64,000 bases of DNA from an uncultured Flavobacteriales bacterium (lineage in GTDB: Bacteria > Bacteroidota > Bacteroidia > Flavobacteriales_E > Vicingaceae). The notes under the pieces are model-generated. The model had not been told where the DNA came from and ran no database searches. It was given only the letters and a program-made list of their open reading frames with translations. Each line of letters opens with the position of its first letter. Positions within the stretch are counted from its first letter, which is position 1. This document shows positions 3,925 to 52,860 of the stretch, piece by piece. Both the position numbers and the translations under genes were made by a program. Location: contig OY970294.1 in NCBI GenBank assembly GCA_963716125.1, positions 3,585,396-3,649,395 on the forward strand. Reading direction: 5' to 3'.

Positions 3925-3946
3925 TTTAATGCCTTATTCTAATTTC

Positions 3947-4475
3947 TTATCTAGCTTCAACTCTTATTGTACCTGTTGCTATCAACATTTCTTCCAATTC
4001 GGATTCTGTTTGATCATGGTTATCATGAACATGCAACTCCATCACAAATTTATCATTGGTTGTTTCAGGATAAGGATTTCTTGCTTTAACACCTGGTAAA
4101 GTCCAGTTTCTTAAAAAGTAAGTCAATGCCAAACCATGAGCTGCCATCAAAACTGTAAACTCAAAAGTAATAGGAATGAAAGCAGGTAAATTATCCATTA
4201 ACGTAAAATTGGGTTTACCACCTACGTTCATAGGCCAATCCTGAATCATAAAATACCACATACCTGTAAGCGCTAAAATCAAGCCTACACATCCATATAT
4301 AAATGAAGTGATTGCAATTCTTGTTGGTTTTATACCGATGATAGGATCCAAACCATGAATTGGGAAAGGAGAAAACACATCTGCGTATATATATACCTTT
4401 TGATACCAAATCTTTTGCTCCTTTTAGCAAGATTTGTTCATCATCGTAGGTTGCGTATATAACTTTATCAGCCAT
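3947..4475 (-). CDS. actD: alternative complex III subunit ActD (DUF3341 family), reading frame interrupted by a 1-nt indel near 4382-4385
   Basis: The N-terminus MADKVIYATYDDEQILLKGAKDLVSKGIYI is in one frame (from 4475). The rest, (A)DVFSPFPIHGLDPIIGIKPTRIAITSFIYGCVGL..., is in the -1 frame (6-frame ORFs 4215..4475 and 3947..4378). Joined together they reproduce the conserved ActD pattern G-x-x-I-x-(D/E)-V-(F/Y)-(S/T)-PFP-(I/V)-HGLD. Confidence 0.6.
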
Positions 4476-4487
4476 TTTTAAGTATTA

Positions 4488-5882: not shown

Positions 5883-5912
5883 TATAATACTTTTTTGCTA
5901 TTTCTTGATTAA

Positions 5913-8900
5913 TTAAGCTTTTGCTTCTTCTATATTTCTAACTTTCAATTGGTAATATACATTTGGCTCTGTACCTATTTCTTCTATAACTCTATAAGCT
6001 CTTTGACTGTCTGCTTTTTGTCTTACATGGGTTTCCTTATCATTCAAATCACCAAAAATAATCGCATTGGTAGGACAAGCTGATGCACATGCCGTTTCGA
6101 TTTCGCCATCTTTAACAGCTCTACTCTCTATCTTAGCATTCAATTTTCCTTCTTGAATACGTTGAACGCACATACTACATTTTTCCATAACCCCTCTAGC
6201 TCTCACTGTAACATCAGGATTTAATACCATTCTTCCCAAATCATCTTGAGCAGGGTTTATTGCATTAAAATCACTGTTATTTTGGTAGCTAAACCAGTTA
6301 AAACGTCTTACCTTATAAGGACAGTTGTTGGCACAATATCTTGTACCGATACATCTGTTATAAGTCATCATATTCAAACCTTCATTACTATGTGTAGTTG
6401 CCAATACAGGACATACAGTTTCACATGGTGCATGATTACAATGCTGACACATCATTGGTTGAAATACTACCTGTGGATTATCCTCAGGAATTTCTAAGTC
6501 CTTATTATAACGAACATCTTTTTCAGGATCGGGAGTTGCTGCACTAAAATATCTATCTATTCTAATCCAATGCATTTCTCTTGATCTTCTTACTTCATCT
6601 TTACCAACAACTGGAACATTATTTTCAGAAGTACAAGAAGTTACACAAGCTGAACATCCAATACATGAGTTCATATCAATGGACATTCCCCATCTATGAC
6701 CAACATTAGCTACAGGGTGTTTACCCCATAAATCTGCATCGGTAGTTTTAATAGGACTATCATGCAAAGTAACTAAATGCGGTGGATTATAAGTTTCTAT
6801 CGTTTTATTTTTGAAGGTATCAAAAGAAGTTTCTTTTACGATAGAATCTCTACCCATAATAGTTTGATGTGTTTGAGTAGTTGCAATCTGATAATCATCA
6901 GCTGCCATTTCAAAACTTACATCAGCACTATAGTTTTCTACATTATTTCCATAAGGCATTGCTGGATAAACGTTAAATCCAACTATTTGATCATCTTTAC
7001 CAATAGTTTGACCATAACCAACAGCTACACCAAGAGTACCTCTTGCCTGTCCTGGTTGAGAAATTACAGGAACACCATTAAATTCAACACCATTAATTTT
7101 AATATTCATGGTATTAGCATCCTTTTGCTCACCATATTCAGTATTGTAATCCAACTCACGAGCATCCGAAGGATTCATAGTAATATAATTGTCCCAAGTA
7201 ATTTTAGAAATTGGATCGGGCAATTCTTGTAACCATGGATTATGAGCATCATTACCTGTACCAATACCCACTTTTTGGTAAAATTCAATTTCCCAATCTC
7301 CTGCAGGTGCCTTTGAAACTGAAGCGATTGCTGAATTAACATTCCCACTAAATACAGCATCTGATGCCGTATTCAAATCATGTGAAAAAACACCATCACC
7401 TAAAGTGGCACTCCAAAAGTCAAAGAAATTTAAACTCTTATTTTGCATTGGGTAGGCTTTCGCTTCCCAATTTTTCTTGATGTAAGAATAATAATCTCCA
7501 TCCATATCCATCCAAGCCATCAAAGACTCTTGAAATTGTCTTGAATCAAACAATTTAGAAATTACAGGCTGAGATAAAGAATACTGACCTTGAGATGGGT
7601 TGAAATCATTCCAAGATTCTAAATAATGATTATCAGGAGCAATATAATTACATAAATCTGTAGTAGCATTTGGACGAATAGCAAAAGAAACTCTTGTTTT
7701 TACTTTAGCCAAAGCTGCAGAAAAACCAGCTTGAGCAGGCATTGAATAAGCAGGATTAACTCCACTTATAAAAATTGCATCTACAGCTCCAGAGTTCATG
7801 TCCTTTGCTAATTTTGCAACCGCTTTATCGTTTCCTTGTCTTAAAAATGAAGGGTTATCTATATCAATAGTAGAACCATAACTACCCAAAAGGTTGTTAA
7901 TAGCATTAACTATTATTTGTGAATTTACATCATTAGAATTAGATATTACAAGTGCTGCACCTTTAGATTTTACTAAAGAATCACCTGCTCTTGCAATTTG
8001 CGCATCTACAGTAGTACTTACAGAATTACCTGCATTACCGCCAACTTTAGAAGCAACATAATTATATAGTGCTGCCAATACCTTACCATGCTCTGATGGT
8101 TTGATTGGTGTTCTATAATCAGCGTTAGAACCACTTAATGAAAAAGAAGTTTCAAACTGAAAATGTTGTGACATCCAATCGTTTTCAGGTTTTCTACCTA
8201 AAGCGTATTGTTTTGCAAATTGTATAGGAGAAATCCAATTACCTAGAAAATCTGCCCCTACTGAAACTATAGTTTTAGCATTTTCAAAATGATAAGAAGG
8301 CAAAACATTTTTACCAAATGATTGCATATTAGCCTCGATTATAGCTGAAGAAGAAACTGCATCATAAGAAACATGTTCAATAGAAGCTGCAGGATACTTT
8401 GCTTTTAATTCTTCAATCAACATTTTGGTAGACGGACTAAGAATTGTATTGGTTAAAATTCTAATTGATCCACCTTTTGAATTAATAGCTGACAAATCTG
8501 CTTTAATTGCTTTATCTAAACTAGCCCAAGATGCTGTTTCTCCATTTATCATTGGAGATTTTATTCTTTTACCATCATATAATGAAAGCAATGAAGAGTT
8601 AACTCTAGCACTTACGCCTCCATTTGTAACTTTTGATAGCTTATTCCCATCAATTTTAATTGGACGACCTTCTCGTGTTTTTACTAATATGCTTGCATAA
8701 TCATTTCCATCAGAGAATGAGGTTGCATACCAATTAGCCAGTCCAGGTGTAATATTATCAGGTTTTACGACATAAGGAATTGCTTTAATAACAGGAGTTT
8801 CACAAGCTGCCAAAGAAGCCGCTGTAATTCCAAAACCTAAATACTTCAAAAAGTCTCTTCTTGTAGTAGAAGAAGATTCTAAAGCTTCTTTATCGCCTAA

Positions 8901-9046: not shown

Positions 9047-10306
9047 TTAATAGTGACACTTAGCGCATTCAATACCGCCTAACTCACTAACAGTAATAAC
9101 ACCGTCTTCTAAATATTCTTTTCTTAATTTTTCAGGTAATCTTTTATGAATTTCATCATAATAACCATTTCCTTCCATTTGCACTTTAGTTTCTTCATGA
9201 CAATGAATACACCATCCCATTGTTAATGGAGCAAATTGTTTTCCAACAGTATAAGTCTCAACCGGCCCATGACATGTTTGACATTCGATTTGACCAACTT
9301 TAATATGTTGTGAATGATTAAAATAAACGTGATCAGGAAGATTATGAACTTTAACCCATTTAATTGGAGTAGTATTTTCTCCGTAAGTTTTAGTTACAGG
9401 ATCAAAATCTAAAGCTTTATAAATTTTTGCAATTTCTTCTTTACCGTATTGAGGTCCTTCATTAATATAGGTATGACAATTCATACATAAATTAGCAGCA
9501 GGAATACCAGCTGACTTACTATTTTTAGCACTACTGTGGCAGTACTGACAATCTATTTTATTCTGACCTGCATGTAATTGGTGAGAAAACTTGATAGGTT
9601 GTTCTGGCTCATAACCTTGATAAACGCCAATATTTAGAGCTGTATCCCATCCAGCCTTTGCTACTAAAACAATTAAACCAAGTACTATTAATGCAACAAA
9701 TTTTCTATTGGTAGCCATCCAATTTTGAATAGCGCCAAACATATTCGTCTCTTCTTCAATTTCCCCTTCTTGCATTACAGAACGCAAGGAATAGTTCACC
9801 TTTCTAAGAATTCCGATAATAACCAAAAGAATTACTAATGCACCTAAAAATACATAAGTAGTAGAATTATCAGATTCCTCAACTGCAGCATCACCATTAG
9901 CTCCTGCTACAACCGGTGCAGCAGCATCAGCTGTTGCAGAAGCAGCTCCTGCTTCATTAACATATGCAAAGATAGCGTCAATTTCTTCGTTAGTAACAGG
10001 TTGAGCAGGCATTGCCAACTTATTAAACTCATTGTAAATTGCTACTGCATCTTTATCTCCTGAGGCAATGAATTCAGATGAGTTTTTAACCCATTTGTAA
10101 ATCCATTCCATATCATGCTTTTCAGTAACTCCAGCTAAACCTGGCCCCACTAAAGTTTTTTCACTTGGATAGTGACAAGAAGCGCAATAAGACTTAAAAA
10201 GCTTTGCCCCATCTTGAGCGTAGGCTATATTAGACAGTAGAGAAACAGCAACAAAAAGTAGCCCGTATATCTTTAAATTTATTGATTTAGTATGAAATGC
10301 CTTCAT
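9047..10306 (-). CDS. actA: alternative complex III subunit ActA (multiheme cytochrome c)
   Basis: Six CxxCH motifs (CASCH, CQYCH, CMNCH, CQTCH, CIHCH, CAKCH). The start is placed at the internal Met MKAFHTKSINLKIYGLLFVAVSLL (signal peptide) rather than at the ORF-track start 10384. Confidence 0.8.
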   Translation of the reverse strand: MKAFHTKSINLKIYGLLFVAVSLLSNIAYAQDGAKLFKSYCASCHYPSEKTLVGPGLAGVTEKHDMEWIYKWVKNSSEFIASGDKDAVAIYNEFNKLAMPAQPVTNEEIDAIFAYVNEAGAASATADAAAPVVAGANGDAAVEESDNSTTYVFLGALVILLVIIGILRKVNYSLRSVMQEGEIEEETNMFGAIQNWMATNRKFVALIVLGLIVLVAKAGWDTALNIGVYQGYEPEQPIKFSHQLHAGQNKIDCQYCHSSAKNSKSAGIPAANLCMNCHTYINEGPQYGKEEIAKIYKALDFDPVTKTYGENTTPIKWVKVHNLPDHVYFNHSQHIKVGQIECQTCHGPVETYTVGKQFAPLTMGWCIHCHEETKVQMEGNGYYDEIHKRLPEKLRKEYLEDGVITVSELGGIECAKCHY

Positions 10307-10562
10307 ATTAATGGTATTACGTGTATATCGCAACTGAAATTGAATTAAGTTTACTTTTATGTGGCGCAAATTTATAAGAAACATCGTTTTTAGCTCACTA
10401 TTTTCAACAAAATTAATTGGAGAAAGCTTAATTTATAATGAATCTAAATAAGTTTTAATTTCAATTCAAAGTTGTGATATATTGTTTTATTTAATTAATC
10501 AATTTGTAAATTCACTTCAATTAAAATTCATAATTTTGATTTGAATTTTTAATTCAACTGCA

Positions 10563-11021
10563 ATGATAAAGAAATATGTTTTAACATTAATTGTAATTTT
10601 TCAATCAATTCTATTATTTTCTCAAAATAATCAAGAAATTGGAGAAACTACGCAACAAAAATTAAAATTCACTAATCCTCAAGCTATGATTTCCAAATAT
10701 ACTAAGGAAGGGAAAATAGAAATTGTAGAAGATTACAAAATCGGAGTACTAGTTGAAAAATATAATGTTTCCAAAAAAGATTTTGGCTACAGAATTCAGG
10801 TTTATTCAGGTTTATCGAGAACCGATGCTTTAAAAGCTCAAGGAAACTTCAATAGCAATTACAGAAAAATTTCCTCTTATTTAATATATCAACAACCTAA
10901 TTTTAAAATAAGAGTGGGTGATTTTGAGGATAGATTAGCAGTTAATGAGTTTTTTGAAAAAATGCTACCAACTTTTCCTGGTTCATTTATTATTCAAGAT
11001 GAAATCAATTTTCATCCTTAG
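10563..11021 (+). CDS. SPOR domain-containing protein (peptidoglycan-binding)
   Basis: 152 aa with a signal peptide. The C-terminal region (GYRIQVYSGLSRTDALKAQGNFNSNY...IRVGDFEDRLAVNEF) matches the SPOR domain fold pattern. Confidence 0.55.
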   Translation: MIKKYVLTLIVIFQSILLFSQNNQEIGETTQQKLKFTNPQAMISKYTKEGKIEIVEDYKIGVLVEKYNVSKKDFGYRIQVYSGLSRTDALKAQGNFNSNYRKISSYLIYQQPNFKIRVGDFEDRLAVNEFFEKMLPTFPGSFIIQDEINFHP

Positions 11022-12982
11022 TCGATTGAAATCACTTTAAATTCCGTTCTTCTGTTTTTCGCCTTTCCTTTAACAGTATTATTTGATGCTATCGGCTGAC
11101 TTTGGCCATATCCTTTAAAAGTTAATCTAGAACTAGATATGCCGTTCTTTATTAAATAGTTATAAACTTCTTTTGCTCTATTGGTAGATAAAGTATTATT
11201 TAGAGCAACGCTACCTTCATTATCCGTATGTCCTGCAATTTCGATAGAAAGGTTTTCATTTTTCTTTAAAAAGGTTACCAATTTATTCAACTCAGCCTTA
11301 GAATTACCTAACAATTCATACTCATTAGTGGCATAGAAAATATTTTTAAGGATTACTTTTTCTCCCACCTTAATCTTATCTAATTCAATATTCATTTTAT
11401 AAGGCTCATCTTCAGAAGCGTTCTCAATAGTAAAATTCTCAGAATAAAATAAGTACCCATCTCTAGAAACGTTCAAAGCATAATCTCTTGACAATGGTAA
11501 AGCAATTAAAAAACTACCATCATTAGGATCTGAATAAGATGCAATTACAGTTTCTTCTGTTTCCATATTAATCAATTCAAATTTTCCTAATAAAGGCTTC
11601 TTTGTTTCTGAATCAATTACTTTTCCTGCCAAATAACTCACTTGTTTTGGTTGTATAGATGGATCCAAAGCAAACTCATATAAATCCAAACCTCCATATC
11701 CGCCTTCACGATCAGATGCAAAATAAGCTTTTTGACCATCGGGAGAGATCAAAATTGAGTTCTCATTACCAAAAGTATTAATTGGATAACCTAAATTTTG
11801 AGGATTGCTCCAATTGCCGTCCTTATCTTTTCTACATAAATAAATGTCCAAATCACCCATTCCTGGATGTCCATCTGATGAAAAATATAAGGTTTGTCCA
11901 TCAGGATGAATAAAAACAGATTCTTCATTTTTAACAGTGTTTATATTCATTGGCAGTGGTTGAGGCATTGACCAATACCCCTCAGCATTTAATTCAGTAA
12001 CAAATATATCACTATGTGATTTTCCATTTTTTGGTTTAACTCTTCTGATAAAATAAAGAGTTTTCCCATCAGCGCTAAAAGAAGGTTGAGTTTCCCAAGA
12101 ACTAGAATTTACAGGCTTGCCGATATTTTCAGCTTTCAACCATCTTTGTCCAACTCTTTGTGAATAAAATAAATCACAGCTTCCATATCCTTTTCTTTCC
12201 GCACCATATTCTCCATAAAATTCACAAGCGGTAAATATTAATAATTTACCATCAGCCGATAAAGTAGGAGCTCCTTCATTATTCTCGGTATTAATTGGCT
12301 GTCCTAAATTTTGAGATTTTTCCCATTTACCATCGATTAATTTACTTACATAAAAATCTTCATTAAATTTAATGGGTGAGTCAGGAGCAGGAAGTTGACG
12401 AGTATATAATAAGGTAGAACCATCAACTGTAATACTCGGAAAATATTCAGAATAAGATGAATTTACACCTTCGCCCATATTTATTGCTTTAAAAGGTACG
12501 GGGTTTTTCATTGCCTCTAAAGCATATTCTATATTTACTAATCGATCTTGTGCATCGCTTCTCAACCGTGGATCGGCCTTTGGCAATAAAAGATATCTTT
12601 CAAAACCTTTCTTTGCATATTGATAATCACCTAATTCCATTGATAGTTGCGCAGCGAAAAATAAATTTAAGGTAGAAAATGAAGGATTAATATTAAGCGC
12701 TTTTTTGAAACTGCTTAAGGCTTTTTCTTTTTCTCTGCTATCTACATAAACATACCCCAACAAAGTGTGTGCTTCCACGAAATTAGATTCTTTTTCTAAA
12801 GCTTCTAATAATAAAGGAATAGCTAAATTAGGTTGACGATTTTTATAATTTTCGTTGGCCTCTTCAAATAATTTAATAGCTTTTTTATTGTTTATTGTAT
12901 AGTTAGTGCTTTGAGCAGAAATTTGCAAAAACGAAAACAATAAAAGTGAGAGAATTAAACTTGATTTTTTGAAAATTTCCAT
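11018..12982 (-). CDS. OmpA-family outer-membrane protein with TPR repeats and a TolB-like beta-propeller
   Basis: C-terminal OmpA/MotB peptidoglycan-binding domain (NIFYATNEYELLGNSKAELNKLVTFLKKN...GHTDNEGS...NRRTEFKVI), N-terminal TPR repeats and signal peptide. The start is taken at MEIFKK (12982); the ORF-track start is 13009. Confidence 0.8.
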   Translation of the reverse strand: MEIFKKSSLILSLLLFSFLQISAQSTNYTINNKKAIKLFEEANENYKNRQPNLAIPLLLEALEKESNFVEAHTLLGYVYVDSREKEKALSSFKKALNINPSFSTLNLFFAAQLSMELGDYQYAKKGFERYLLLPKADPRLRSDAQDRLVNIEYALEAMKNPVPFKAINMGEGVNSSYSEYFPSITVDGSTLLYTRQLPAPDSPIKFNEDFYVSKLIDGKWEKSQNLGQPINTENNEGAPTLSADGKLLIFTACEFYGEYGAERKGYGSCDLFYSQRVGQRWLKAENIGKPVNSSSWETQPSFSADGKTLYFIRRVKPKNGKSHSDIFVTELNAEGYWSMPQPLPMNINTVKNEESVFIHPDGQTLYFSSDGHPGMGDLDIYLCRKDKDGNWSNPQNLGYPINTFGNENSILISPDGQKAYFASDREGGYGGLDLYEFALDPSIQPKQVSYLAGKVIDSETKKPLLGKFELINMETEETVIASYSDPNDGSFLIALPLSRDYALNVSRDGYLFYSENFTIENASEDEPYKMNIELDKIKVGEKVILKNIFYATNEYELLGNSKAELNKLVTFLKKNENLSIEIAGHTDNEGSVALNNTLSTNRAKEVYNYLIKNGISSSRLTFKGYGQSQPIASNNTVKGKAKNRRTEFKVISID

Positions 12983-25497: not shown

Positions 25498-26260
25498 TTT
25501 GATAAAATTTTAATAATTCTTTTAGCATCCCGTCCTCTGTAAATGGTTTTGCTACTAAATTAATTTTCAAGCCATTATCAACAGCTATTTTCTCAGTAGA
25601 AGTTCCAATTACCGCAATTTTTTCATTGGTTAACTCTAAATTATATTTAGATAAATGCTGACAAAAATTCTCCACAGCTGATCCACTAAAAAATGTAATC
25701 CAATCCAATTGATGCTCTAAAATTGCTATAAAGTCTTCTTTACTATATTGAGGATCATAATTTTCATATATAGGCAACGTGATCACCTCTTTGCATTGTT
25801 CACTTAACAAATTTACGTATTCATTATTTGCTTTTGATGATTGAGGAATTAGAATTCGTTCATCACCGAAAATAGGGATTTGTTTTGCCAACATTTGTGC
25901 TGTGTATTCAATTGGGACAAAACTGCTTCTATATCCTACTTTTTCTAATGCAGCTTTTGTTTTTTCTCCTACAGTCGCAATTCGCAAATGAGTTAAAAAA
26001 TGAACTTTTATTTGAAACTTTTCTATGGTTTCAAAAAAGTAATTGACAGTATTAGCACTTGTAAAAACAATCCAATCAATATTTTCTAATAGATTGAGCT
26101 CTTTTTCTATATTTTTTTGATTTTCAATAGCTCGAATAGCTATCATTGGAAAACTGATAGCCTCTGCTCCTTTATTCTCTAATAATTTAATGAATGAATC
26201 AGTCTGATGCTCGGCTCTAGTTATTAGAAGTTTTTTATTTTGAAGCGGATTCACTGACAA
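25490..26260 (-). CDS. hemD: uroporphyrinogen-III synthase
   Basis: HemD-like fold and length, and its position between hemC and hemB in the heme cluster. Confidence 0.7.
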
Positions 26261-28424
26261 CTTCTTTAGTTTTCTCTTCTAATTCTTTTTTCAATTCAAT
26301 AGCTAATTCTCTAGCGATTTTTAAGTAATCCTTTGCTAAACCTTCTTTAAAGCTATTACAAACAAGACTTCCATCATCAGAAGCGAACATTCCTTCTATT
26401 AAAATTCTATCATTATCTACTTGAGCATAAGCAGCAATAGGATAATTACATCCTCCACCTAAAGCTATTAAAAATTCTCTTTCTGCAAATGTTGCTATTT
26501 GTGTAGCTTCATGATTATATTGTTTAACCAAATCCATTACAAAACCTTTCTCATCACGAATTTCTATTGCTAAAGCACCTTGAGCTACAGCAGGTAAAAC
26601 ATCTTTAGCAGGAAAAATATAATTTGCTTTATCTATCATTCCCAAACGATTGATGCCTGCATACGCTAATAAAATAGCATCATAGCCACCTTCCATCATC
26701 TTTTTGATTCTACTATCCAAGTTACCTTGTATAAATTTAGTTTCTATATCGGGTCTCAATTGCTTGAGTTGAATTTGTCGTCTTAAACTTCCAGTGCCAA
26801 TTACAGCTCCTTTCTTTAACTCCTCAAAAGTTTCTCCATTTCGTGAAATCAAAATATCACGAACATCTGCCCTTTCAGAAATTGCGGCTAATCTAAGTCC
26901 ACTTATATTTTCAATTGGCAAATCCTTAAAACTGTGTACTGCCATATCCACTTCTCCTTTCACCAATGCTCTTTGAATAGCAGTAGTAAATGCTCCCATT
27001 ACTTGTATATCTCCATCATCACCATTGGTTCTAATAACTTTAGTAATGAATTCATATTCAGGTTCAATTTTCTTTAATGCTTCTATTACATGATGAGTTT
27101 GTGTCAAAGCAAGTTTACTTCCTCTAGTACCAACAATCACTCGTTTTTTAGGAACACGAATCTTTGCATTTTCTAATCCAAATACTTTTTTAACGGTATT
27201 GATTGGATTGTCTTGTTCGTGCATTTTATTAGACATCTCATGAATTACTTCCATTGGTCGTTTAGAGATTTTACGAACCATGCGATGAGCAAATTTTTCT
27301 AATATTTCTATTTGAGTTGGATTCAAATCACCCATTTTAGGCAGTAACCAACTTAATTCTGTTTCTTTTATTTCTTGCAATGAATTCCAATAGGCTTCTA
27401 TCACTGGCGAAGCTTTTCTATTGTAATACCAATTAGTAAACTTTTGAACTTCTTCGTCTACCAATTCAGTAGCTTTAGGAATTTCATCATGTCTTTTAAG
27501 CAAACTCTCAAAAGTCATTTTTTTGATGTCATCCAAATCATAAAGAGTAATCCCTTCTACATTTTTTAAGCCAGGATTAAAGTTTCTTGGTAATCCAAAA
27601 TCAATTAATAATTTAGGTTCAGAAGCTTTAAAAGCAAACTGTGCTCTCGTACATTGGCTATCTGTTATCGCAGCTTCGCTCAATAAATTGACTTCTCCTT
27701 GAGTTCCACCAACCATTATATCTACCTGACCTACATATCTGTGTAAATATTTTATATCAATAGCTTCTCCATGCCACTCAGCTGCCATTTCAGTAGCTCG
27801 CTCTAAATTATGGCTAGCAACATATAATTTTTTGATTTTAGTTCTGTCTAAAATAGTAGCTACCAAATTAGCCATACTTCCTGTTCCCACTACTAATAGG
27901 GAACTATCTTCTAATTTATAGCCATGTTGCTCTATCAATTCAAACCCTACAGTAGCTAATGAAGCAGAATGTTTTCCAATATTAGTTTCTAACCTTACTC
28001 TTTTACCTGTATGAACGGCATGACGTATCATTTCGTCCAGCATAGGGCCAATAGTTTTGGTTTTTCTTGCTAAAGCTAAAGCTGATCTAATTTGACCAAC
28101 TATTTGATGCTCTCCAATAGCTTGTGATTCTAATCCTGCAGCAGTAGAAAATAAATTTCTAATAGCTATTTCAGTATCAGGTAAAACAGTGAGGTATTGA
28201 GAGAAATTTCCGAACTTTTTAAGGTAATTTTCTAATCCATAATAGTTGTCACCAAAGGCATATAAGGACAACCTATTACAAGTTGCAATTATGAAAACTT
28301 CCTTATATATTTTCTTGAGATCTTCCAGAGCTTGAATGGTCTGCTCATCGTTTAAGGCCATTTGCTCCCTAATTTCTATAGGTGCAAAACGGTGACTTAA
28401 CTCAATTCCAACTATTTTATTCAT
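26235..28424 (-). CDS. hemA/hemC: glutamyl-tRNA reductase (HemA) fused in frame with hydroxymethylbilane synthase (HemC)
   Basis: The N-terminal ~420 aa is HemA (…IIATCNRLSLY…, NAD-binding VVGTGSMANL). The C-terminal ~300 aa is porphobilinogen deaminase (…KRVIVGTRGSKLALTQT…). There is no stop codon or start between them, giving a single 729-aa ORF. Confidence 0.8.
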   Translation of the reverse strand: MNKIVGIELSHRFAPIEIREQMALNDEQTIQALEDLKKIYKEVFIIATCNRLSLYAFGDNYYGLENYLKKFGNFSQYLTVLPDTEIAIRNLFSTAAGLESQAIGEHQIVGQIRSALALARKTKTIGPMLDEMIRHAVHTGKRVRLETNIGKHSASLATVGFELIEQHGYKLEDSSLLVVGTGSMANLVATILDRTKIKKLYVASHNLERATEMAAEWHGEAIDIKYLHRYVGQVDIMVGGTQGEVNLLSEAAITDSQCTRAQFAFKASEPKLLIDFGLPRNFNPGLKNVEGITLYDLDDIKKMTFESLLKRHDEIPKATELVDEEVQKFTNWYYNRKASPVIEAYWNSLQEIKETELSWLLPKMGDLNPTQIEILEKFAHRMVRKISKRPMEVIHEMSNKMHEQDNPINTVKKVFGLENAKIRVPKKRVIVGTRGSKLALTQTHHVIEALKKIEPEYEFITKVIRTNGDDGDIQVMGAFTTAIQRALVKGEVDMAVHSFKDLPIENISGLRLAAISERADVRDILISRNGETFEELKKGAVIGTGSLRRQIQLKQLRPDIETKFIQGNLDSRIKKMMEGGYDAILLAYAGINRLGMIDKANYIFPAKDVLPAVAQGALAIEIRDEKGFVMDLVKQYNHEATQIATFAEREFLIALGGGCNYPIAAYAQVDNDRILIEGMFASDDGSLVCNSFKEGLAKDYLKIARELAIELKKELEEKTKEVVSESASK

Positions 28425-32530: not shown

Positions 32531-32544
32531 TTTCTATAATTGCA

Positions 32545-32608
32545 CCTCTTTGTTCCCGCACGATTGCATCGCGTGTTTAAATTCAAAAAACAATTTAGAT
32601 AAATTTAT
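32545..32608 (+). repeat. REP-like element copy A: hairpin CGCACGAT-TGC-ATCGCGTG plus ~40 bp conserved flank (…GTGTTTAAATTCAAAAAACAATTTAGATAAATTT)
   Basis: About 65 bp nearly identical to copy B at 35586..35648, in the same orientation. The core palindrome is shared with copy C (inverted) next to the RAYT gene. Confidence 0.7.
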
Positions 32609-32686: not shown

Positions 32687-32977
32687 TTAATTAAAAATAT
32701 TTTCTAAGTCTAGACTTCCAACAATAGCAACTATTTCAACCATTCCATCTAAAAATGTATAATAAATACTATCTGAACCACAAGGACAACATCTGCAATC
32801 TTTACTAATATTATCTACTGATTTGAAAGATAGAGGTCTTTGAGCTATTAGTTCAAAATATTCAAAAAATGTATTGAAATATTTATCAGCTTATGTCATT
32901 CCAAAACTGCGGATTCCAAATTGATGTATTCTAATTAAGTCTGCCTCTGCTTCATTACTAATTCTATAGTTTGGCAT
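32687..32977 (-). pseudogene. parE: ParE/RelE-family toxin inactivated by an in-frame TAA (codon 29) at 32891..32893
   Basis: The minus-strand ATG at 32977 overlaps the last codons of parD. The translation is MPNYRISNEAEADLIRIHQFGIRSFGMT*ADKYFNTFFEYFELIAQRPLSFKSVDNISKDCRCCPCGSDSIYYTFLDGMVEIVAIVGSLDLENIFN. It aligns with ParE1 (…WGVDQAEQY…GxRxLxxGSHxxFYRV…V.VLHQRMD). The stop replaces the conserved Gln (CAA->TAA). Confidence 0.7.
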
Positions 32978-33209
32978 CGTACAAAGCTTTAGATTTTGCT
33001 AATATTTCAGAACTTGTATTAGTTGTAAATCCACTTTTTTTTGCTCTGTCTAGTTTAGTCGCCAACCAATCTACTCGTCTTTGCTGATTTCTTGCCTGTC
33101 TTATCAAATCATTGACCAATTCACTTTTGCTTGCATATTCATTACTGCTAACTTGTGATTTTAACCATTCATCATTTGGCTCTGTAAAAGAAATACTTTG
33201 TCGTCCCAT
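32964..33209 (-). CDS. parD: ParD-family (RHH/CopG-like) type II antitoxin
   Basis: 81 aa. MGRQSISFTEPNDEWLKSQVSSNEYASKSELVNDLIRQARNQQ… closely parallels the ParD1 pattern MGKNTSFVLDEHYSAFIDGEIAAGRYRSASEVIRSALRLLEDRE…. Confidence 0.75.
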   Translation of the reverse strand: MGRQSISFTEPNDEWLKSQVSSNEYASKSELVNDLIRQARNQQRRVDWLATKLDRAKKSGFTTNTSSEILAKSKALYDAKL

Positions 33210-33348: not shown

Positions 33349-34257
33349 CTAATATTTAGCAGCCTTTATTTTTTTTCCAAAAAGCATTTGTTGGTGTTCC
33401 TTGGATAATTCATTATCCCAACTTAATAAATACTCTGTAAGCGGACTAATATTAAGAGAATCAAGATTTCGATATGGGAATGCCATAATCTCATTTGGGA
33501 AATTTTTCATTACAAAGTCTTTCTTTTTTCTAGCTTTTCTATTTTTATCAAAAGGCGAAATATATAGATCTAATGCTCCAAATAGATGTAAGAATTCATG
33601 AGCAATTACTGATGGATTTTTAAAACTAACTACTGAATATTCAGGATTATTATTGCTACCAATATGCAATGCTACAGAAATCTCGTCAGTATAATAATTA
33701 TTAATAAAATACATTAGGGCTACATTATCAGTCTTATGAATATCTCTAATCCTAGCTATTAATCTTTCTCTGTCTTTAGGGTTTATCTTAGTTCTTGTAA
33801 TGGTGGATGTGTCTGGTCCGTATATCTGCAAAGCTTTTTTTCCAACCTTATCTGCCCATCTGTCTATATTTCTCGTATTTATACCTGTAGAAGTGAAAAG
33901 ACTAGCAGAAAGAGTTTTCCTTGGTAGATTACTTTCAATAGGTATTATTCTTTTTGAATCTTGATGAAAATCTAATTCTATGTCAAGGTTAATATTCCTT
34001 TCTTTCGCTTGTCTCTCAAGCCAATATATAGCTTTATTTATTGAATCAGTTGTTGATGAAATATCAAAAGTAGACCAAGAGTTCGTATATCTTGAATCAA
34101 CAAAAATAGCATATAATATCACTTTTTCAGTTAGTTTCTTGCATACATTATTATTTACGGTTGAGATATGAGCTTCATTTCCATAGTGTTTTTGAAACAT
34201 TTGACAAGATGAAAAAAGGAAAATGAATGCGGAAGTAATAATTTTAAGTCTTATCAT
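33349..34257 (-). CDS. lipoprotein with an HExxH zinc-metallopeptidase-like motif (VIAHEFLHLFGALDLY)
   Basis: 302 aa with a lipoprotein signal (LFSSCQMF) and a single HEFLH motif followed by GxLDLY. The family was not recognised. Confidence 0.5.
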   Translation of the reverse strand: MIRLKIITSAFIFLFSSCQMFQKHYGNEAHISTVNNNVCKKLTEKVILYAIFVDSRYTNSWSTFDISSTTDSINKAIYWLERQAKERNINLDIELDFHQDSKRIIPIESNLPRKTLSASLFTSTGINTRNIDRWADKVGKKALQIYGPDTSTITRTKINPKDRERLIARIRDIHKTDNVALMYFINNYYTDEISVALHIGSNNNPEYSVVSFKNPSVIAHEFLHLFGALDLYISPFDKNRKARKKKDFVMKNFPNEIMAFPYRNLDSLNISPLTEYLLSWDNELSKEHQQMLFGKKIKAAKY

Positions 34258-34427: not shown

Positions 34428-35525
34428 TTATTGAATCTCGGGTCTAAATCTATCAAATGATTTCCAATATTTGTCTTTGTAAATATCAAAATCAACACTC
34501 AGTCTGTTTTTGTAATAAGATTTAATATTAGTTAGAACTTTTGAAGGCAATCTAAAATCCTTGCAAGCAAAATAGATATATCTTACATTATCAGCAGTTT
34601 GCCTTCCAACATTTAAATATCCTTCTGAATCCTTAAGTTCAAACATTAATTCATCTTCAAATTTATTCATTAATTCATACGTTTCTTTATCAGGCATTCC
34701 ATTCTCATTGCCTTTGAATTTGATCTCGATAGTCAGAATCCACGGATGAGAAGCTTTGCTGTCCCAGTTAAGAAGAGCGGAGTTAACAATTGCTAATAAA
34801 GGTTTGCCATTATTTAATGTTGCTTCAAGTGAATTGTAACTGTCGTTTTCTGTATTATATCTTGTTCCTTCGTACTTTTCAATAAATTCTTTCTGTCTCC
34901 AAATAAGATAATCTTTAAGCTTCTCAATTGGAATTAATTCTTTTTCAGCCTTATCTTTTCCAACAATCTTCATGTTATCAATAGTTGTCACAGAATTTAA
35001 TTCACCTAAATAATTATCCATGAAGATATAAATCCCGTTAATTATTGGTTCTTTTAAACCTTCTGTGTAATCTGCATGAATGACAGTAATATCTATTTCA
35101 TCGGGAAGCTCAGAATTATCATTAGAATAAAATGATAAATTCTCCTTACTAAATTTCAAATCGCCCATACTGATATATACATCGTTTATATCGAGGGCTG
35201 GTTTTAATTCTGTAAATCTCCAATTATTAATCTTAGGGGCAGATTGAGCCAGTTCTTCAACAAATACTATGTTTTTATAAATCCCATCGGCAGTTAAAAT
35301 TAATTCTGCAGTATTGTTGTCTAACATGCCGGCTAAAAAACAGTATCCGTCTCTAAGTTGATTTAGTTTTGATGCCAATTTATTAAAGAAATCGCGTTCA
35401 ATACTTTCTTGATTCTTTATAACTTTGAAGAAATCCTTCTCATTATTCTGAAACCAAATCCAAAAGTCTTTATTTGATTTTATGGGTGTTTCTTTTGCAC
35501 CTCTTAAGTTTCTAAATAGCCCCAT
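34428..35525 (-). CDS. hypothetical cytoplasmic protein
   Basis: 365-aa ORF with no signal peptide and no recognised motif. Confidence 0.5.
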   Translation of the reverse strand: MGLFRNLRGAKETPIKSNKDFWIWFQNNEKDFFKVIKNQESIERDFFNKLASKLNQLRDGYCFLAGMLDNNTAELILTADGIYKNIVFVEELAQSAPKINNWRFTELKPALDINDVYISMGDLKFSKENLSFYSNDNSELPDEIDITVIHADYTEGLKEPIINGIYIFMDNYLGELNSVTTIDNMKIVGKDKAEKELIPIEKLKDYLIWRQKEFIEKYEGTRYNTENDSYNSLEATLNNGKPLLAIVNSALLNWDSKASHPWILTIEIKFKGNENGMPDKETYELMNKFEDELMFELKDSEGYLNVGRQTADNVRYIYFACKDFRLPSKVLTNIKSYYKNRLSVDFDIYKDKYWKSFDRFRPEIQ

Positions 35526-35585
35526 TCAATTAAGTTTTTTATTTGTCTAATGTTTTTAGCCTTGCCTACAATAATTATTTAACAA

Positions 35586-35648
35586 CCTCTGTTCCCGCGC
35601 GATTGCATCGCGTGTTTAAATTCAAAAAACAATTTAGTTAAATTTTCT
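35586..35648 (+). repeat. REP-like element copy B (hairpin CGCGAT-TGC-ATCGCG plus conserved flank), 5' of the RAYT gene
   Basis: Near-identical to copy A. It lies 62 bp upstream of the RAYT start. Confidence 0.7.
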
Positions 35649-35709
35649 ACTCAAAGATATCTATTTTGTATCAATGAATTAGTTAATTTAGATAGCAAAT
35701 TATTTAGGT

Positions 35710-36273
35710 ATGAGCAGAAATTACAAGTTCAAAAATCCTAAGGGGCTTTACTTTGTCAGCTTTGCAGTAGTAAAATGGTTGGATGTTTTTACAAGGAATG
35801 AGTATAAAGATGTAATGCTTGATAGTTTAAGGTTTTGCCAAAAAGAAAAAGGATTAGAAATAATTGCTTGGTGTATCATGACCAATCATGTTCATTTAAT
35901 CTTTAGAACCACCAACGATTTTAAACCTGAACAAGTTTTAGGAGACATTAAAAGATTTACGAGCAAAAAAATTGTAAAAGCTATAGTAAATAATCCAAAA
36001 GAGAGTAGAAAAGAAAATTTACTACAAGTATTTAAAGCAGCAGCTAATGAATCATCCAATGTTAGAGATTATCAATTTTGGAGACATGACAATAAACCAA
36101 TAGAATTATGGAGTAATAAAGTAATTGCTCAAAAAGTAAAATACATTCATCAAAATCCAGTAGAAGCCGGATATGTTTACTATGCTAAAGACTATATATA
36201 CAGCAGCGCAGCAGATTATGCTGGCGAAAAAGGATTAATTGATAATATTATTTTAGCAGAGTTAAATTTATAA
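35710..36273 (+). mobile_element. REP-associated tyrosine transposase (RAYT; IS200/IS605 TnpA-like HUH Y1 transposase)
   Basis: 187 aa with the HUH motif (IMTNHVHLIF) and a C-terminal catalytic-Tyr region (AGYVYYAKDYIYSS). It is flanked by inverted REP hairpins (copies B and C). Confidence 0.75.
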
Positions 36274-36280
36274 CCAATTA

Positions 36281-36306
36281 ATCACGCGATGCAATCGCGC
36301 GAGAAC
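36281..36306 (-). repeat. REP-like element copy C (inverted orientation), 8 bp after the RAYT stop
   Basis: ATCACGCGATGCAATCGCGCGAGAAC is the reverse complement of GTTCTCGCGCGATTGCATCGCGTGAT. This matches the core of copies A and B. Confidence 0.7.
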
Positions 36307-48733: not shown

Positions 48734-48810
48734 TTACAATTTATAGACACCTTAAAGTTAACAAATACTGCTTAATTAAAAAATTGCCGAAATTTATTAG
48801 GTTTATTCTT

Positions 48811-49170
48811 CAAACTTCGTAACCAATAGATAACAAGCCGATTTGAACTAACAAAAACTTGCAGGTTTTGTCTCCGATTAATCAACTTAGTTAATGCAAT
48901 ATTTTTCAGCCCGTCCGCCAAAGTGCAACGAAGGAGGATTGTCAATTGCTCTTAACTACCGCCTAAACCTGCAAGGTTTAACTTGCAAACATCTCAACTG
49001 ATTGATAACAAGAAGTAACTAAATAACAAAACCTTGCAAGTTTTTGCTTTGATAAAACATTTTAGTAAATATATTAATTTCAATTATCCAACTTTCCTGC
49101 AAATTCTAATTGTACATTTTCAAGCCGTCCGCCGAAGTGCAACGAAGGAGGATTGTCAATTGCTCTTAAC
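48811..49170. repeat. tandem repeat array 1 (~1.7 units, period ~214 bp) of a novel intergenic repeat family
   Basis: Partial unit, then a full unit, then 12 bp. It shares the box CCGCC(A)AAGTGCAACGAAGGAGGATTGTCAATTGCTCTTAAC and the paired near-palindromes AAACCTGCAAGGTTT / AAACCTTGCA(A/G)GTTT with array 2. Confidence 0.8.
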
Positions 49171-52173: not shown

Positions 52174-52470
52174 ATGCTTCAAATTTCCCAAAATATCAAA
52201 TTCTTTAGATTGTTACGCAATTTAAAACAATCGTACATCTTTGAAAAACTTCAATTAAATCCTAGAACATATAGTAAGATTGAATTGGGAACAAAATCTC
52301 CAACTGTAGATGAAATGGCCATATTGGCAGAAATTTTTAATATCACTGCTCTCCATCTAAAATATTTCGACCCAAATTTGACCATAAAACTAAGTGAGCA
52401 AGCTGTTAACTTAAAAAGAAACCATAATTATGAAGATGAGCAAATATTGGAAATGTTGAATCCGGAATAA
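52174..52470 (+). CDS. XRE-family helix-turn-helix transcriptional regulator
   Basis: 98 aa. HTH_XRE pattern (LRNLKQSYIFEKLQLNPRTYSKIELGTKSPTVDEMAILAEIFNI). Confidence 0.7.
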   Translation: MLQISQNIKFFRLLRNLKQSYIFEKLQLNPRTYSKIELGTKSPTVDEMAILAEIFNITALHLKYFDPNLTIKLSEQAVNLKRNHNYEDEQILEMLNPE

Positions 52471-52472
52471 AT

Positions 52473-52860
52473 AATTGCTCTTAACTACCGCCGAAACCTG
52501 CAAGGTTTTACCTACAAACTTCAGAACTGATAGATAACAAGCCGACATGAACTAACAAAACCTTGCAGGTTTTTGCTTCGATAAAACACTGTAATTTCAA
52601 TTATCCAACCGTCCTGCAAATTCTAATTGTACATTTTCAATACGCCCGCCGAAGTGCAACGAAGGAGGATTTTCAATTGCTCTTAACTACCTCCGAAACC
52701 TGCAAGGTTTTACCTACAAACTTCAGAACCGATAGATAACAAGCCGATATGAACTAACAAAACCTTGCAGGTTTTTGCTTTGATAAAACATTTTAGTAAA
52801 AACTGTAATTTCAATTATCCAACCGTCCTGCGAATTTGACGAAGGCAAATTCTATGTCAT
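52473..52860. repeat. tandem repeat array 2 (~1.9 units, period ~202 bp) of the same novel repeat family as array 1
   Basis: It starts 3 bp after the XRE gene stop. Units 52475..52676 and 52677..~52860 are >90% identical to each other and ~80% identical to array 1. Confidence 0.8.

What the first reader, a model, noticed from the sequence alone, without database searches (positions are those of the whole stretch)
35586..36306. REPtron: a RAYT tyrosine transposase flanked by inverted REP hairpins, in a Bacteroidetes context
The 187-aa HUH/Y1 protein (HVH motif, C-terminal Tyr cluster) sits between two copies of the imperfect palindrome GTTC(C/T)CGCGCGATTGCATCGCGTG. Copy B is 62 bp upstream (35586..35648) in direct orientation; copy C begins 8 bp after the stop in inverted orientation. 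This is the defining arrangement of REP-associated tyrosine transposases. They are best described in Proteobacteria and only sparsely in Bacteroidetes.
Basis: partly seen in the sequence, partly recalled or inferred. Interest (0 to 1): 0.55.

Follow-up and report, generated by a model that had tools for sequence, protein, structure and literature searches.

The report
Bacteroidota REP-associated transposase with flanking hairpins
This is an ordinary member of a published Bacteroidetes family: a domesticated single-strand-DNA transposase gene (RAYT) sitting between two inverted copies of the short DNA hairpin it is thought to copy around the genome.

Summary
A 187-aa HUH/Y1 gene (35710-36273, +) lies between two exact copies of GTTCYCGCGCGATTGCATCGCGTG. 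One is direct and upstream (35591-35614). One is inverted and starts 9 nt after the stop (36283-36306). A third, slightly damaged copy lies 3 kb upstream (32552-32575). None is expected by chance.

The protein passes NCBIfam's REP-associated tyrosine transposase model and fails the IS200 model. It has no tnpB neighbour. Its motifs are NHVH, YIHQNP and a C-terminal SS, with an extra helix. These fit TnpA_REP subclass 2.6 (Bertels group 5), published in 2018 as Bacteroidetes-specific and flanked by atypical, non-GTAG hairpins.

Homologues show the same upstream-direct, downstream-inverted geometry. The 19-nt hairpin core occurs in at least 90 Bacteroidota species genomes. About two thirds of the stretches hold copies away from any RAYT; copies are extragenic and often in tail-to-tail doublets. 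Stem covariation is strong.

The REPtron reading is therefore supported, as a new member of a known kind. The REP count in the rest of the source genome could not be tested, and no subclass 2.6 enzyme has been assayed. The mildly new points are conservation of one REP core across the class Bacteroidia and REP-anchored partial duplications.

The parts
35710..36273 (+). tnpA_REP (RAYT) gene, 187 aa. HUH motif is H60-V61-H62 within NHVH. Catalytic Tyr is Y145 within YIHQNP. The W block is Q122-F123-W124-R-H126-D-N. The C-terminal tail carries Y164-S165-S166.
   Evidence: ORF list. Pfam Y1_Tnp 38.7 bits. NCBIfam REP_Tyr_transpos 88.7 bits vs cutoff 80. Invariant residues in a 31-sequence alignment. 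AF2 model pLDDT 70, pTM 0.73, and the top 30 PDB matches are all Y1 HUH transposases including 4ER8.
35585..35645 (+). Upstream REP (copy B), direct orientation. C-rich lead-in ACCTCT, foot GTTCC (35591-35595), 8-bp stem CGCGCGAT, loop TGC, ATCGCGTG (35596-35614), then ~30 nt of AT-rich leader that is also duplicated at copy A.
   Evidence: Exact pattern match. ssDNA fold -8.3 kcal/mol, z -3.7. 63-nt repeat shared with copy A. Upstream-direct REPs lie 26-232 nt before the start codon in homologues.
36283..36306 (-). Downstream inverted REP (copy C, iREP relative to the gene). Foot GTTCT plus the same hairpin. With its T-A closing pair it forms a 9-bp stem on the minus strand. It lies between the convergent RAYT gene and the 158-aa membrane-protein gene.
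   Evidence: Exact pattern match. Fold -8.1 kcal/mol. Inverted repeat I1 with copy B. Same position in homologues L002, L009, L011, L036 and L125.
32544..32606 (+). Third REP (copy A), direct orientation, 3 kb upstream of B. Core is 32552-32575 with a G-to-A change giving an A.C mismatch in the stem. It carries the same ~30-nt 3' flank as copy B, and similarity starts at the REP's 5' edge.
   Evidence: Pattern match with 1 mismatch. 59/63 identity to the B region. Poor fold -2.5 kcal/mol. The same ACGAT/ATCGC intermediate variant is seen 3 times in other loci.

Best explanation
**What it is.** The locus is a REPtron of the Bacteroidetes-type RAYT clade (TnpA_REP subclass 2.6 of Quentin et al. 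2018, which equals group 5 of Bertels et al. 2017). It is a single, domesticated HUH/Y1 single-strand-DNA endonuclease/transferase gene bracketed by its cognate REP hairpins in inverted orientation.

**The REP unit.** A short C-rich lead-in, a 5-nt foot (GTTCC here, GCTNC in most relatives), an 8-9-bp stem whose base CGC...GTG includes a G.T wobble, and a 3-nt loop.

**Inferred mechanism,** by analogy with E. coli TnpA_REP and IS608/ISDra2 TnpA:
1. The protein binds the REP when that strand is single-stranded and folded. Only the strand reading GTTCC-CGCGCGAT-TGC-ATCGCGTG forms the wobble-containing stem; the complement has a C.A mismatch.
2. H60 and H62 hold a divalent metal.
3. Y145 attacks a phosphodiester next to the REP, giving a 5'-phosphotyrosyl intermediate and a free 3'-OH.
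4. Strand transfer then excises, copies or re-inserts REP units. This maintains a dispersed population of extragenic REPs and tail-to-tail REP doublets.
5. The foot plays the role that the GTAG guide plays in Proteobacteria.

**Shown here:** gene, motifs, fold, hairpin geometry, structural selection on the stem, and dispersal in relatives.

**Inferred only:** binding, cleavage site, strand transfer and any host benefit.
For: **Protein.**
- NCBIfam REP_Tyr_transpos above cutoff; IS200 below cutoff.
- Class-2 signatures NHVH and YIHQNP, not the IS200-type DH[VI]H and Y[IV]ENQ, compared with Table 1 of PMC6006769.
- An extra helix at residues 101-114 between alphaC and beta4, and a C-terminal SS, as described for subclass 2.6.
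- Fold matches only Y1 HUH transposases, including 4ER8.
- 3071 homologues, 70-89% identical in the top 120. All sources that name an organism give Bacteroidota apart from one diatom-transcriptome entry. Many are already named RayT.

**DNA in the window.**
- Three REP copies, none expected by chance.
- B and C are in inverted orientation around the gene.

**DNA in relatives.**
- The same upstream-direct, downstream-inverted geometry recurs.
- An unsearched conserved 5' foot, cCcccGCTnC, is present in Bacteroidota hits and absent from 11 chance hits in GC-rich genomes of other phyla.
- About two thirds of stretches lack any RAYT within 8 kb.
- Two genomes have a full REPtron plus solo copies on other contigs: JBFEWU01 (L036 plus L008, L072, L120) and CAIUUO01 (L061 plus L054, L109).
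- 234 generalised REPs in 850 kb vs 1 in shuffled sequence. 95% lie outside long open frames. Tail-to-tail doublets are the commonest pairing.

**Covariation.**
- 186 of 215 pattern matches have all five unconstrained stem pairs.
- 90.1% of cells are paired vs 71.2% in shuffles (0/500) and 19-54% when partners are slid. 52 double-change cells vs 16 expected.

**Link to the literature.** The published subclass 2.6 REP of Aequorivita sublithincola has the same build and co-occurs with the window-type core in L104, L046 and L093.
Against: - No subclass 2.6 / group 5 enzyme has been tested biochemically, so the mechanism is analogy.
- The REP lacks the GT[AG]G guide, and the W motif is WR in 29 of 31 sequences where Table 1 of the 2018 paper gives WQ. 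Recognition may therefore differ.
- In the source window only three copies exist, all within 3.8 kb of the gene, and one is damaged. The other 60 kb has none. Copy number in this genome may be low.
- The rest of the genome was not retrievable.
- A metagenome scan with the GTTCY-foot variant gave only five stretches.
- The AF2 model is of moderate quality: pLDDT is below 50 for residues 1-10 and 150-172. Its best Foldseek E-values are to IS transposases (ISDra2), not to 4ER8.
- Exact-core copies per related genome appear to be few (1-6 seen), not hundreds. These are lower bounds because the scan was truncated.
Confidence: 0.85

Rival explanations
1. It is an autonomous IS200-type insertion sequence: TnpA only, with subterminal hairpins as its left and right ends. 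It moves as a whole by peel-and-paste single-strand transposition.
For: - Pfam assigns the protein to Y1_Tnp, 'Transposase IS200 like'.
- The best Foldseek and phmmer PDB matches are ISDra2, IS608 and IS200 transposases.
- The unit is compact (~720 nt) and bounded by hairpins.
- In Winogradskyella tangerina three 96-98% identical gene copies lie in tandem, which shows the gene can be duplicated.
Against: - The IS200 equivalog scores 30.3 bits vs a cutoff of 55, while the RAYT equivalog passes.
- The motifs are class 2 (NHVH, YIHQNP), not DH[VI]H / Y[IV]ENQ.
- The two hairpins are on opposite strands. IS200/IS605 ends fold on the same strand.
- There is one gene copy in 64 kb.
- Hairpins occur alone, far from any gene copy, in many relatives.
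- Orthologues are 70% identical across orders, with no near-identical multi-copy pattern.
Confidence: 0.04
2. The hairpins are only local cis-regulatory elements of this gene: an operator or leader structure upstream and a terminator or mRNA-stabilising stem downstream. In this genome they are not a dispersed repeat family mobilised by the protein.
For: - All three window copies lie within 3.8 kb of the gene, and the other ~60 kb has none.
- Copy C lies between convergent genes, where terminators sit.
- Copy B and its duplicated AT-rich leader lie in the 5' region of the gene.
- The source genome could not be surveyed.
Against: - Copy C is not followed by a T-run on the gene's strand. The first T-run starts 13 nt after the stem.
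- Copy A is not next to a RAYT gene.
- In relatives the same hairpin, with the same foot, is found on contigs without RAYT, in doublets and in arrays.
- The upstream and downstream elements are the same sequence in opposite orientation. A regulatory model does not predict this.
Confidence: 0.07
3. It is a fully domesticated nuclease that no longer moves REPs. The conserved protein-hairpin pair serves a host function, such as processing of structured ssDNA at replication forks or regulation through REP binding. The dispersed copies are ancient relics.
For: - Protein conservation is very high across orders (70-77%).
- An identical 19-nt core is present in at least 90 species. This looks more like purifying selection on a fixed recognition site than like a turning-over repeat population.
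- Low exact-core copy numbers were seen per genome.
- The literature treats tnpA_REP as housekeeping-like.
Against: There are signs of recent copying:
- Copies A and B share 59/63 nt including non-hairpin flank.
- Maribellus luteus has repeated REP + leader + RAYT codon 1-48 units that share everything 3' of the foot but not their 5' flanks.
- L016 has five near-identical REP-containing units within about 1 kb.
- Several REP subfamilies co-exist in one genome.

This reading also overlaps with the best explanation more than it excludes it.
Confidence: 0.2

Closest known systems
TnpA_REP subclass 2.6 (Quentin et al. 2018, PMC6006769) = RAYT group 5 (Bertels et al. 2017, PMC5581495). Examples: Aequorivita sublithincola AFL81591.1 and Fluviicola taffensis AEA44309.
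   Same: - Host phylum: Bacteroidetes.
- Length: 187 aa vs a median of 179.
- Motifs: NH[LIV]H and YIH[QN]NP.
- A helical insertion between alphaC and beta4.
- A C-terminal tail with SS.
- Genes flanked by hairpins that lack GT[AG]G.
- REP build of 5-nt foot + 8-bp stem + 3-nt loop, matching the Table S1 entry GCTAG-CGCGAGCG-TCC-CGCTCGTG.
   Different: - The exact REP core CGCGCGATTGCATCGCGTG is not in their table.
- The residue after the conserved W is R here (29/31 sequences), while their table gives WQ.
E. coli REPtron: TnpA_REP (YafM, PDB 4ER8) with REP/BIME elements (group 2 / subclass 2.2)
   Same: - A single HUH/Y1 gene flanked by inverted REPs.
- REPs are a conserved 5' motif plus an imperfect palindrome.
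- REPs are extragenic and often in inverted doublets.
- The fold match includes 4ER8, with the best query-normalised TM score (0.48) in the list.
   Different: - No GTAG guide; the foot is GTTCC/GCTNC.
- The stem is short with a G.T wobble, not a long stem with an A-A/G-C bulge.
- Sequence similarity to 4ER8 is marginal (phmmer E = 0.12).
- REP copy number appears far lower than the ~600 in E. coli.
- The REP core is conserved across a whole class, not species-specific.
IS200/IS605 TnpA (IS608, ISDra2, IS200)
   Same: - HUH/Y1 fold.
- Hairpin-bounded gene.
- Presumed ssDNA chemistry with a guide sequence 5' of the hairpin.
   Different: - Below the IS200 equivalog cutoff.
- Class-2 motifs.
- Hairpins on opposite strands.
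- Single copy.
- No tnpB.
- Solo hairpins dispersed without the gene.
REPINs of Pseudomonas (group 3 RAYT; Bertels and Rainey)
   Same: Tail-to-tail inverted REP doublets with short spacers (14-50 nt) are the commonest paired arrangement in related Bacteroidota loci.
   Different: - The window itself contains no short-spacer doublet.
- The REP sequence, foot and RAYT group all differ.
- Abundance appears lower.

Membership tests
RAYT / TnpA_REP REPtron | HUH metal-binding motif plus a single catalytic Tyr on a Y1 HUH fold | tested here: met
   H60-V61-H62 and Y145 are invariant in 31 sequences. Pfam Y1_Tnp. The top 30 Foldseek PDB matches are all Y1 HUH transposases.
RAYT / TnpA_REP REPtron | Sequence membership: curated RAYT profile above its cutoff and IS200 profile below its cutoff | tested here: met
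   NF047646 scores 88.7 bits (cutoff 80). NF033573 scores 30.3 bits (cutoff 55).
RAYT / TnpA_REP REPtron | Gene immediately flanked by REPs in inverted orientation | tested here: met
   Copy B is on the + strand 95 nt upstream. Copy C is on the - strand 9 nt downstream. Homologues show the same arrangement.
RAYT / TnpA_REP REPtron | REP is a palindrome preceded by a conserved 5' tetranucleotide, most often GTAG | tested here: inconclusive
   A conserved 5' foot exists (GTTCY here, GCTNC across relatives), but it is not GT[AG]G. The 2018 paper accepts such 'atypical' REPs for subclass 2.6.
RAYT / TnpA_REP REPtron | Cognate REPs dispersed genome-wide, mostly extragenic | tested here: inconclusive
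   Source genome: only one extra copy in the 64-kb window, and the rest of the genome is unavailable. Relatives: met. Solo copies lie on RAYT-free stretches, 95% are extragenic, and two genomes have a REPtron plus solo copies on other contigs.
RAYT / TnpA_REP REPtron | tnpA present in one or few copies, not as a multi-copy IS | tested here: inconclusive
   There is a single copy in the window. Genome-level copy number is not testable. Some relatives have 2-3 tandem copies.
RAYT / TnpA_REP REPtron | Strand-specific binding, cleavage and strand transfer of single-stranded REP | not testable with these tools
   This needs purified protein and oligonucleotide assays. A recurrent G.T wobble makes the hairpin strand-asymmetric, which is compatible but is not a test.
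TnpA_REP subclass 2.6 (Bertels group 5) | Key motifs NH[LIV]H and YIH[QN]NP | tested here: met
   N59-H-V-H62 and Y145-I-H-Q-N-P150, compared with Table 1 of PMC6006769.
TnpA_REP subclass 2.6 (Bertels group 5) | W motif given as WQ in Table 1 | tested here: inconclusive
   W124 is invariant, but the next residue is R in 29/31 sequences and Q in 2/31. The paper itself says subclass 2.6 is 'not conserved in this region', so I do not treat Q as defining.
TnpA_REP subclass 2.6 (Bertels group 5) | ~21-aa insertion between alphaC and beta4 predicted as a helix, and a ~29-aa C-terminal tail containing SS | tested here: met
   The model has an extra helix at 101-114 between helix 73-94 and the beta4 region. 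S165-S166 lie in the tail, and S166 is invariant.
TnpA_REP subclass 2.6 (Bertels group 5) | Bacteroidetes host; flanked by hairpins without GT[AG]G, copies of which occur elsewhere in the genome | tested here: met
   The window encodes two T9SS sorting-domain proteins. Named homologues are Bacteroidota. For the hairpins.
TnpA_REP subclass 2.6 (Bertels group 5) | Phylogenetic placement among the published subclass 2.6 sequences | not tested
The only link is indirect: the published Aequorivita REP co-occurs with the window-type REP in L104, L046 and L093.
IS200/IS605 insertion sequence | TnpA_IS200 signature: equivalog score, DH[VI]H and Y[IV]ENQ motifs | tested here: not met
   30.3 bits against a cutoff of 55. 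The motifs are NHVH and YIHQNP.
IS200/IS605 insertion sequence | Left- and right-end hairpins on the same (top) strand, and the element present as near-identical multiple copies | tested here: not met
   The hairpins are on opposite strands. There is one gene copy in the window. No tnpB is present.

The most novel reading that the evidence does not exclude
**Reading.** In this Bacteroidia clade the REP acts as a fixed left-hand anchor for one-ended copying. RAYT (or replication template-switching at the folded REP) would start at the 5' edge of the REP and run rightwards for a variable distance. This would create REP + flank duplicates and occasionally bracket or capture neighbouring genes.

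**Observations that fit.**
- Window copies A and B share the REP plus ~30 nt of 3' flank, and their similarity starts at the REP's 5' edge.
- A and B bracket a 3-kb, low-GC segment holding a ParD-like antitoxin gene, a lipoprotein-like gene and a DUF695 gene.
- Maribellus luteus has repeated 'REP + leader + first 48 RAYT codons' units with unrelated 5' flanks.
- Other genomes have REP plus RAYT fragments of 25-108 codons.

**Added point.** One 19-nt REP core is conserved in at least 90 species across four orders. Together these would make this an unusually stable, experimentally convenient RAYT system with a copying mode not described for proteobacterial REPs.
Probability: 0.12. Interest if true: 0.55.

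Novelty: new member of a known kind. Interest (0 to 1): 0.25.

Why it matters
On its own this locus adds one more example to a published and database-annotated family, so it changes little.

Its modest value is as a pointer. The Bacteroidetes RAYT clade has never been tested biochemically. It uses a non-GTAG foot. Both the protein (about 70% identity across orders) and one REP core (identical 19-mer in at least 90 species) are unusually conserved.

This has three practical consequences:
- One oligonucleotide substrate could serve for enzymes from many species.
- How REP recognition works without GTAG becomes directly testable.
- The persistence of REP-RAYT pairs over long evolutionary times can be examined outside Proteobacteria.

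Tried and rejected
1. **Second Y1-type gene in the window.** A weak tblastn hit of RAYT at 27038-26796 (-) (30% over 81 aa, E = 0.009) lies inside a 729-aa ORF at 26235-28424. By eye that ORF looks like a tetrapyrrole-biosynthesis enzyme. I rejected the hit as chance.

2. **Conserved synteny as evidence of vertical inheritance.** Winogradskyella has RNR genes just upstream of its RAYT cluster, and the window has an RNR-domain ORF 4 kb upstream. However, tblastn of 14 window neighbours against all loci hit only the same-species contig L001. No synteny, so the lead was dropped.

3. **Rfam.** No family covers the hairpin. The only hit in 30-55 kb is a chance miRNA match.

4. **Retrieving the source genome to count REPs.** The exact protein is on record on a contig longer than 1 Mb, but only a 4.1-kb Logan contig was returned. 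That contig starts 48 nt upstream of the gene, just past the 63-nt repeat shared by copies A and B, which may be why the assembly broke there.

5. **Metagenome scan with the GTTCY-foot variant.** Only five stretches were returned, and none is from the same species.

6. **Fold search as a discriminator between IS200 and RAYT.** It confirms the fold but does not separate the two families.

7. **tnpB remnant.** None was found among the flanking ORFs, and the intergenic gaps are too short to hold one.
Full report
**1. The observation**

The window contains an ATG-initiated 187-aa ORF at 35710-36273 on the + strand. Searching GTTCYCGCGCGATTGCATCGCGTG with up to three mismatches gives exactly three sites:
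- Copy A: 32552-32575 (+), one mismatch.
- Copy B: 35591-35614 (+), exact.
- Copy C: 36283-36306 (-), exact.

No matches appeared in 100 dinucleotide-preserving shuffles. A looser hairpin-only pattern recovers the same three sites and nothing else. The B/C pair is the longest inverted repeat in the whole 64-kb window.

As single-stranded DNA, B folds at -8.3 kcal/mol (z = -3.7) into an 8-bp stem with a 3-nt loop. C folds on its own strand at -8.1 kcal/mol with a 9-bp stem. Copy A has a G-to-A change that creates an A.C mismatch, and it no longer folds stably.

Small corrections to the finding:
- Hairpin B ends 95 nt before the ATG. The '62 bp' refers to the end of a longer repeat.
- Copy C starts 9 nt after the stop, not 8.
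- Copies A and B share 59 of 63 nt (32544-32606 vs 35585-35645). That covers the REP plus about 30 nt of its AT-rich 3' flank.

**2. The protein**

Sequence-family evidence:
- Pfam places it in Y1_Tnp (38.7 bits).
- NCBIfam's equivalog for REP-associated tyrosine transposases scores 88.7 bits against a cutoff of 80. The IS200 equivalog scores 30.3 against 55.

In an alignment with 30 homologues the following are invariant:
- H60 and H62, in NHVH.
- Y145, in YIHQNP.
- Most of the block QFW(R)HDN (the R is nearly invariant).
- Y162, Y164, S166 and Y170.

An AlphaFold2 model (pLDDT 70, pTM 0.73) has the expected beta-alpha-beta-beta-alpha core. It also has an additional helix at residues 101-114 and a helix carrying Y145. 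Its 30 best PDB matches are all Y1 HUH transposases: ISDra2, IS608, the Sulfolobus IS200-type enzyme and E. coli TnpA_REP 4ER8. The fold is confirmed but does not by itself separate RAYT from IS200. The motifs and the NCBIfam profiles do that.

There is no second copy of the gene in the window and no tnpB. The neighbours are:
- A DUF695 protein.
- A lipoprotein-like ORF.
- A weak ParD-like antitoxin.
- An unannotated membrane protein.
- FeoA and FeoB.

Two proteins with the type IX secretion sorting domain elsewhere in the window place it in Bacteroidota.

**3. The family**

The protein has 3071 homologues. The best 120 are 69-89% identical. All sources that name an organism give Bacteroidota of several orders, apart from one diatom-transcriptome entry. 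Many are already named 'REP-associated tyrosine transposase' or 'RayT'.

In homologous loci the gene is again preceded by a direct hairpin and followed by an inverted one. In a homologue only 77% identical (L002), the downstream hairpin core is identical to the window's.

**4. Is the hairpin a dispersed repeat?**

The rest of the source genome could not be retrieved. I therefore scanned one genome per species of GTDB for the 19-nt core CGCRCGATTGCATCGCGTG.

- 107 come from at least 90 Bacteroidota assemblies spanning Flavobacteriales, Bacteroidales (including the Prolixibacteraceae/Marinilabiliaceae group), Cytophagales and Chitinophagales.
- 11 are from GC-rich genomes of other phyla.
- 2 are labelled as other phyla but look like Bacteroidota copies.

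Outside the searched core, the Bacteroidota copies share a conserved 5' extension, cCcccGCTnC, and a 3' G. The 11 other-phylum hits lack these, so they are the expected chance matches.

About one third of the stretches have a RAYT gene or fragment next to the hairpin. The rest have none within 8 kb. Two assemblies show a complete REPtron plus solo copies on other contigs:
- JBFEWU01: L036 plus L008, L072 and L120.
- CAIUUO01: L061 plus L054 and L109.

A generalised, structure-defined pattern finds 234 hairpins in 850 kb of these loci, against 1 in shuffled sequence. Of these, 95% lie outside long open frames. Tail-to-tail inverted doublets with 14-50-nt spacers are the commonest paired arrangement. 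These are the properties of REPs and REPINs.

For the source genome itself, the only direct evidence of copies beyond the gene's flanks is copy A.

**5. Structural selection**

I collected every match to the foot plus CGC-N13/14-GTG without requiring any pairing. Of 215 matches, 186 have all five unconstrained pairs. At least ten different stem sequences keep pairing through double changes. Examples are GCGAT/ATCGC, ACGAT/ATCGT, GAGAT/ATCTC, ACGAA/TTCGT, GAGCG/CGCTC and GGATA/TATCC.

On the 37 distinct sequences:
- 90.1% of cells are paired, against 71.2% in column shuffles (0 of 500 reach it).
- Only 19-54% are paired when the partners are slid.
- There are 52 double-change cells against 16 expected.
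- The last base of the foot covaries with the base after the stem (C-G 23, G-C 8).

Three pairs were fixed by the search pattern and say nothing. The G.T wobble at the second pair recurs in hairpins found without requiring it and in the published Aequorivita REP. It makes the structure strand-specific, because the complementary strand has a C.A mismatch.

**6. What is already known**

Quentin et al. 2018 (PMC6006769) split the Y1 HUH superfamily into classes. Their subclass 2.6, which equals Bertels group 5, has these properties:
- It is dominated by Bacteroidetes.
- Median length is 179 aa.
- Motifs are NH[LIV]H and YIH[QN]NP.
- It has a ~21-aa insertion between alphaC and beta4, modelled as a helix.
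- It has a C-terminal tail with SS.
- It averages 1.8 copies per genome.

Their Table S1 lists, for Aequorivita sublithincola, GCTAG-CGCGAGCG-TCC-CGCTCGTG. That is the same 5-nt foot, 8-bp CGCG...CGTG stem and 3-nt loop as here. That sequence occurs verbatim in L104, with near-variants in L046 and L093, in the same stretches as the window-type core. The exact window core is not in their table.

Bertels et al. 2017 report about 31 genome-wide occurrences of the commonest flanking 16-mer for group 5. This fits the modest copy numbers seen here.

The only deviation from the published motif table is WR instead of WQ after the conserved tryptophan. The authors themselves say this region is not conserved in subclass 2.6.

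**7. Mechanism**

For E. coli TnpA_REP the following has been shown (Corneloup et al. 2021):
- It recognises single-stranded, folded REP but not the inverted REP.
- It needs the 5' GTAG.
- It cleaves at a CT dinucleotide 5' or 3' of the REP, through a 5'-phosphotyrosine intermediate.
- It can rejoin strands.

By analogy, the protein here would:
1. Bind the top-strand REP hairpin.
2. Use H60/H62 for metal binding and Y145 as the nucleophile.
3. Use the GTTCC/GCTNC foot in the place of GTAG.

Everything biochemical is inference. No enzyme of this subclass has been assayed.

One anatomical hint concerns the unit's left edge. Where two REP-containing copies can be compared, similarity begins 9-11 nt 5' of the stem, at the C-rich lead-in, and continues rightwards for variable distances. 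This holds for window copies A/B, Maribellus luteus L073, Leeuwenhoekiella L040, L006 and L101. In some genomes similarity runs into the first 25-108 codons of RAYT. This is compatible with a cut at the 5' edge of the REP and one-ended copying, but it is not a demonstration.

**8. Verdict**

- The element is a new member of a known, published and database-annotated kind.
- Interest is low to moderate.
- The points that go slightly beyond the literature I could read are the conservation of one 19-nt REP core in at least 90 species across four orders of Bacteroidia, and the REP-anchored partial duplications.
- The main untested item is the REP count in the rest of the source genome.

Noticed in passing
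window 48787-49170 and 52432-52836: An unrelated ~200-nt intergenic repeat: two tandem units plus one copy 3.5 kb away. Each unit has an internal inverted repeat (AAACCTGCAAGGTTT ... AAACCTTGCAGGTTT) and a GC-rich junction box (GCCGTCCGCCGAAGTGCAACGAAGGAGGATTGTCAATTGCTCTTAAC). It lies next to a T9SS-tail protein gene. No Rfam match at E <= 1.
   Followed up: partly
window 32544-32606 vs 35585-35645, and the 3-kb segment between them: REP copies A and B are direct repeats that include ~30 nt of non-hairpin 3' flank. They bracket a low-GC (28-29%) segment with a ParD-like antitoxin ORF (32964-33209), a lipoprotein-like ORF (33349-34257) and a DUF695 ORF (34428-35525), all on the minus strand. 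No homologues of these genes were found beside REPs in other loci.
   Followed up: partly
L073 (Maribellus luteus) 5860-8000; also L013, L014, L117, L031, L095, L118: Units of 'REP + leader + only the first 25-108 codons of RAYT'. In L073 these are part of a ~996-nt tandem array. The copies share everything 3' of the REP foot but have unrelated 5' flanks.
   Followed up: partly
L004 (Winogradskyella tangerina) 7855-8418, 10001-10564, 11626-12153; L079 (Saccharicrinis) 3811-5075: Tandem RAYT paralogues. In Winogradskyella there are three copies, 96-98% identical to each other, separated by small unknown ORFs and arrays of REPs. In Saccharicrinis there are two adjacent copies. This is unusual for a gene described as single-copy.
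   Followed up: partly
L076 (MAG labelled Alteromonas) and L077 (MAG labelled Verrucomicrobia): Both carry the full Bacteroidota-type REP including the conserved foot (cctgctgc / ccccgctac). This suggests mis-binned Bacteroidota contigs or horizontal transfer.
   Followed up: no
L001 (Logan contig of the same species), start of contig: The only retrievable same-species contig starts 48 nt upstream of the RAYT start codon, just past the 63-nt repeat shared by copies A and B. This fits an assembly break caused by that repeat.
   Followed up: no
window 32700-32960 (-): Downstream of the ParD-like antitoxin ORF there is no intact toxin ORF of 50 aa or more. This may be a degraded toxin gene. It was judged by eye only.
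   Followed up: no
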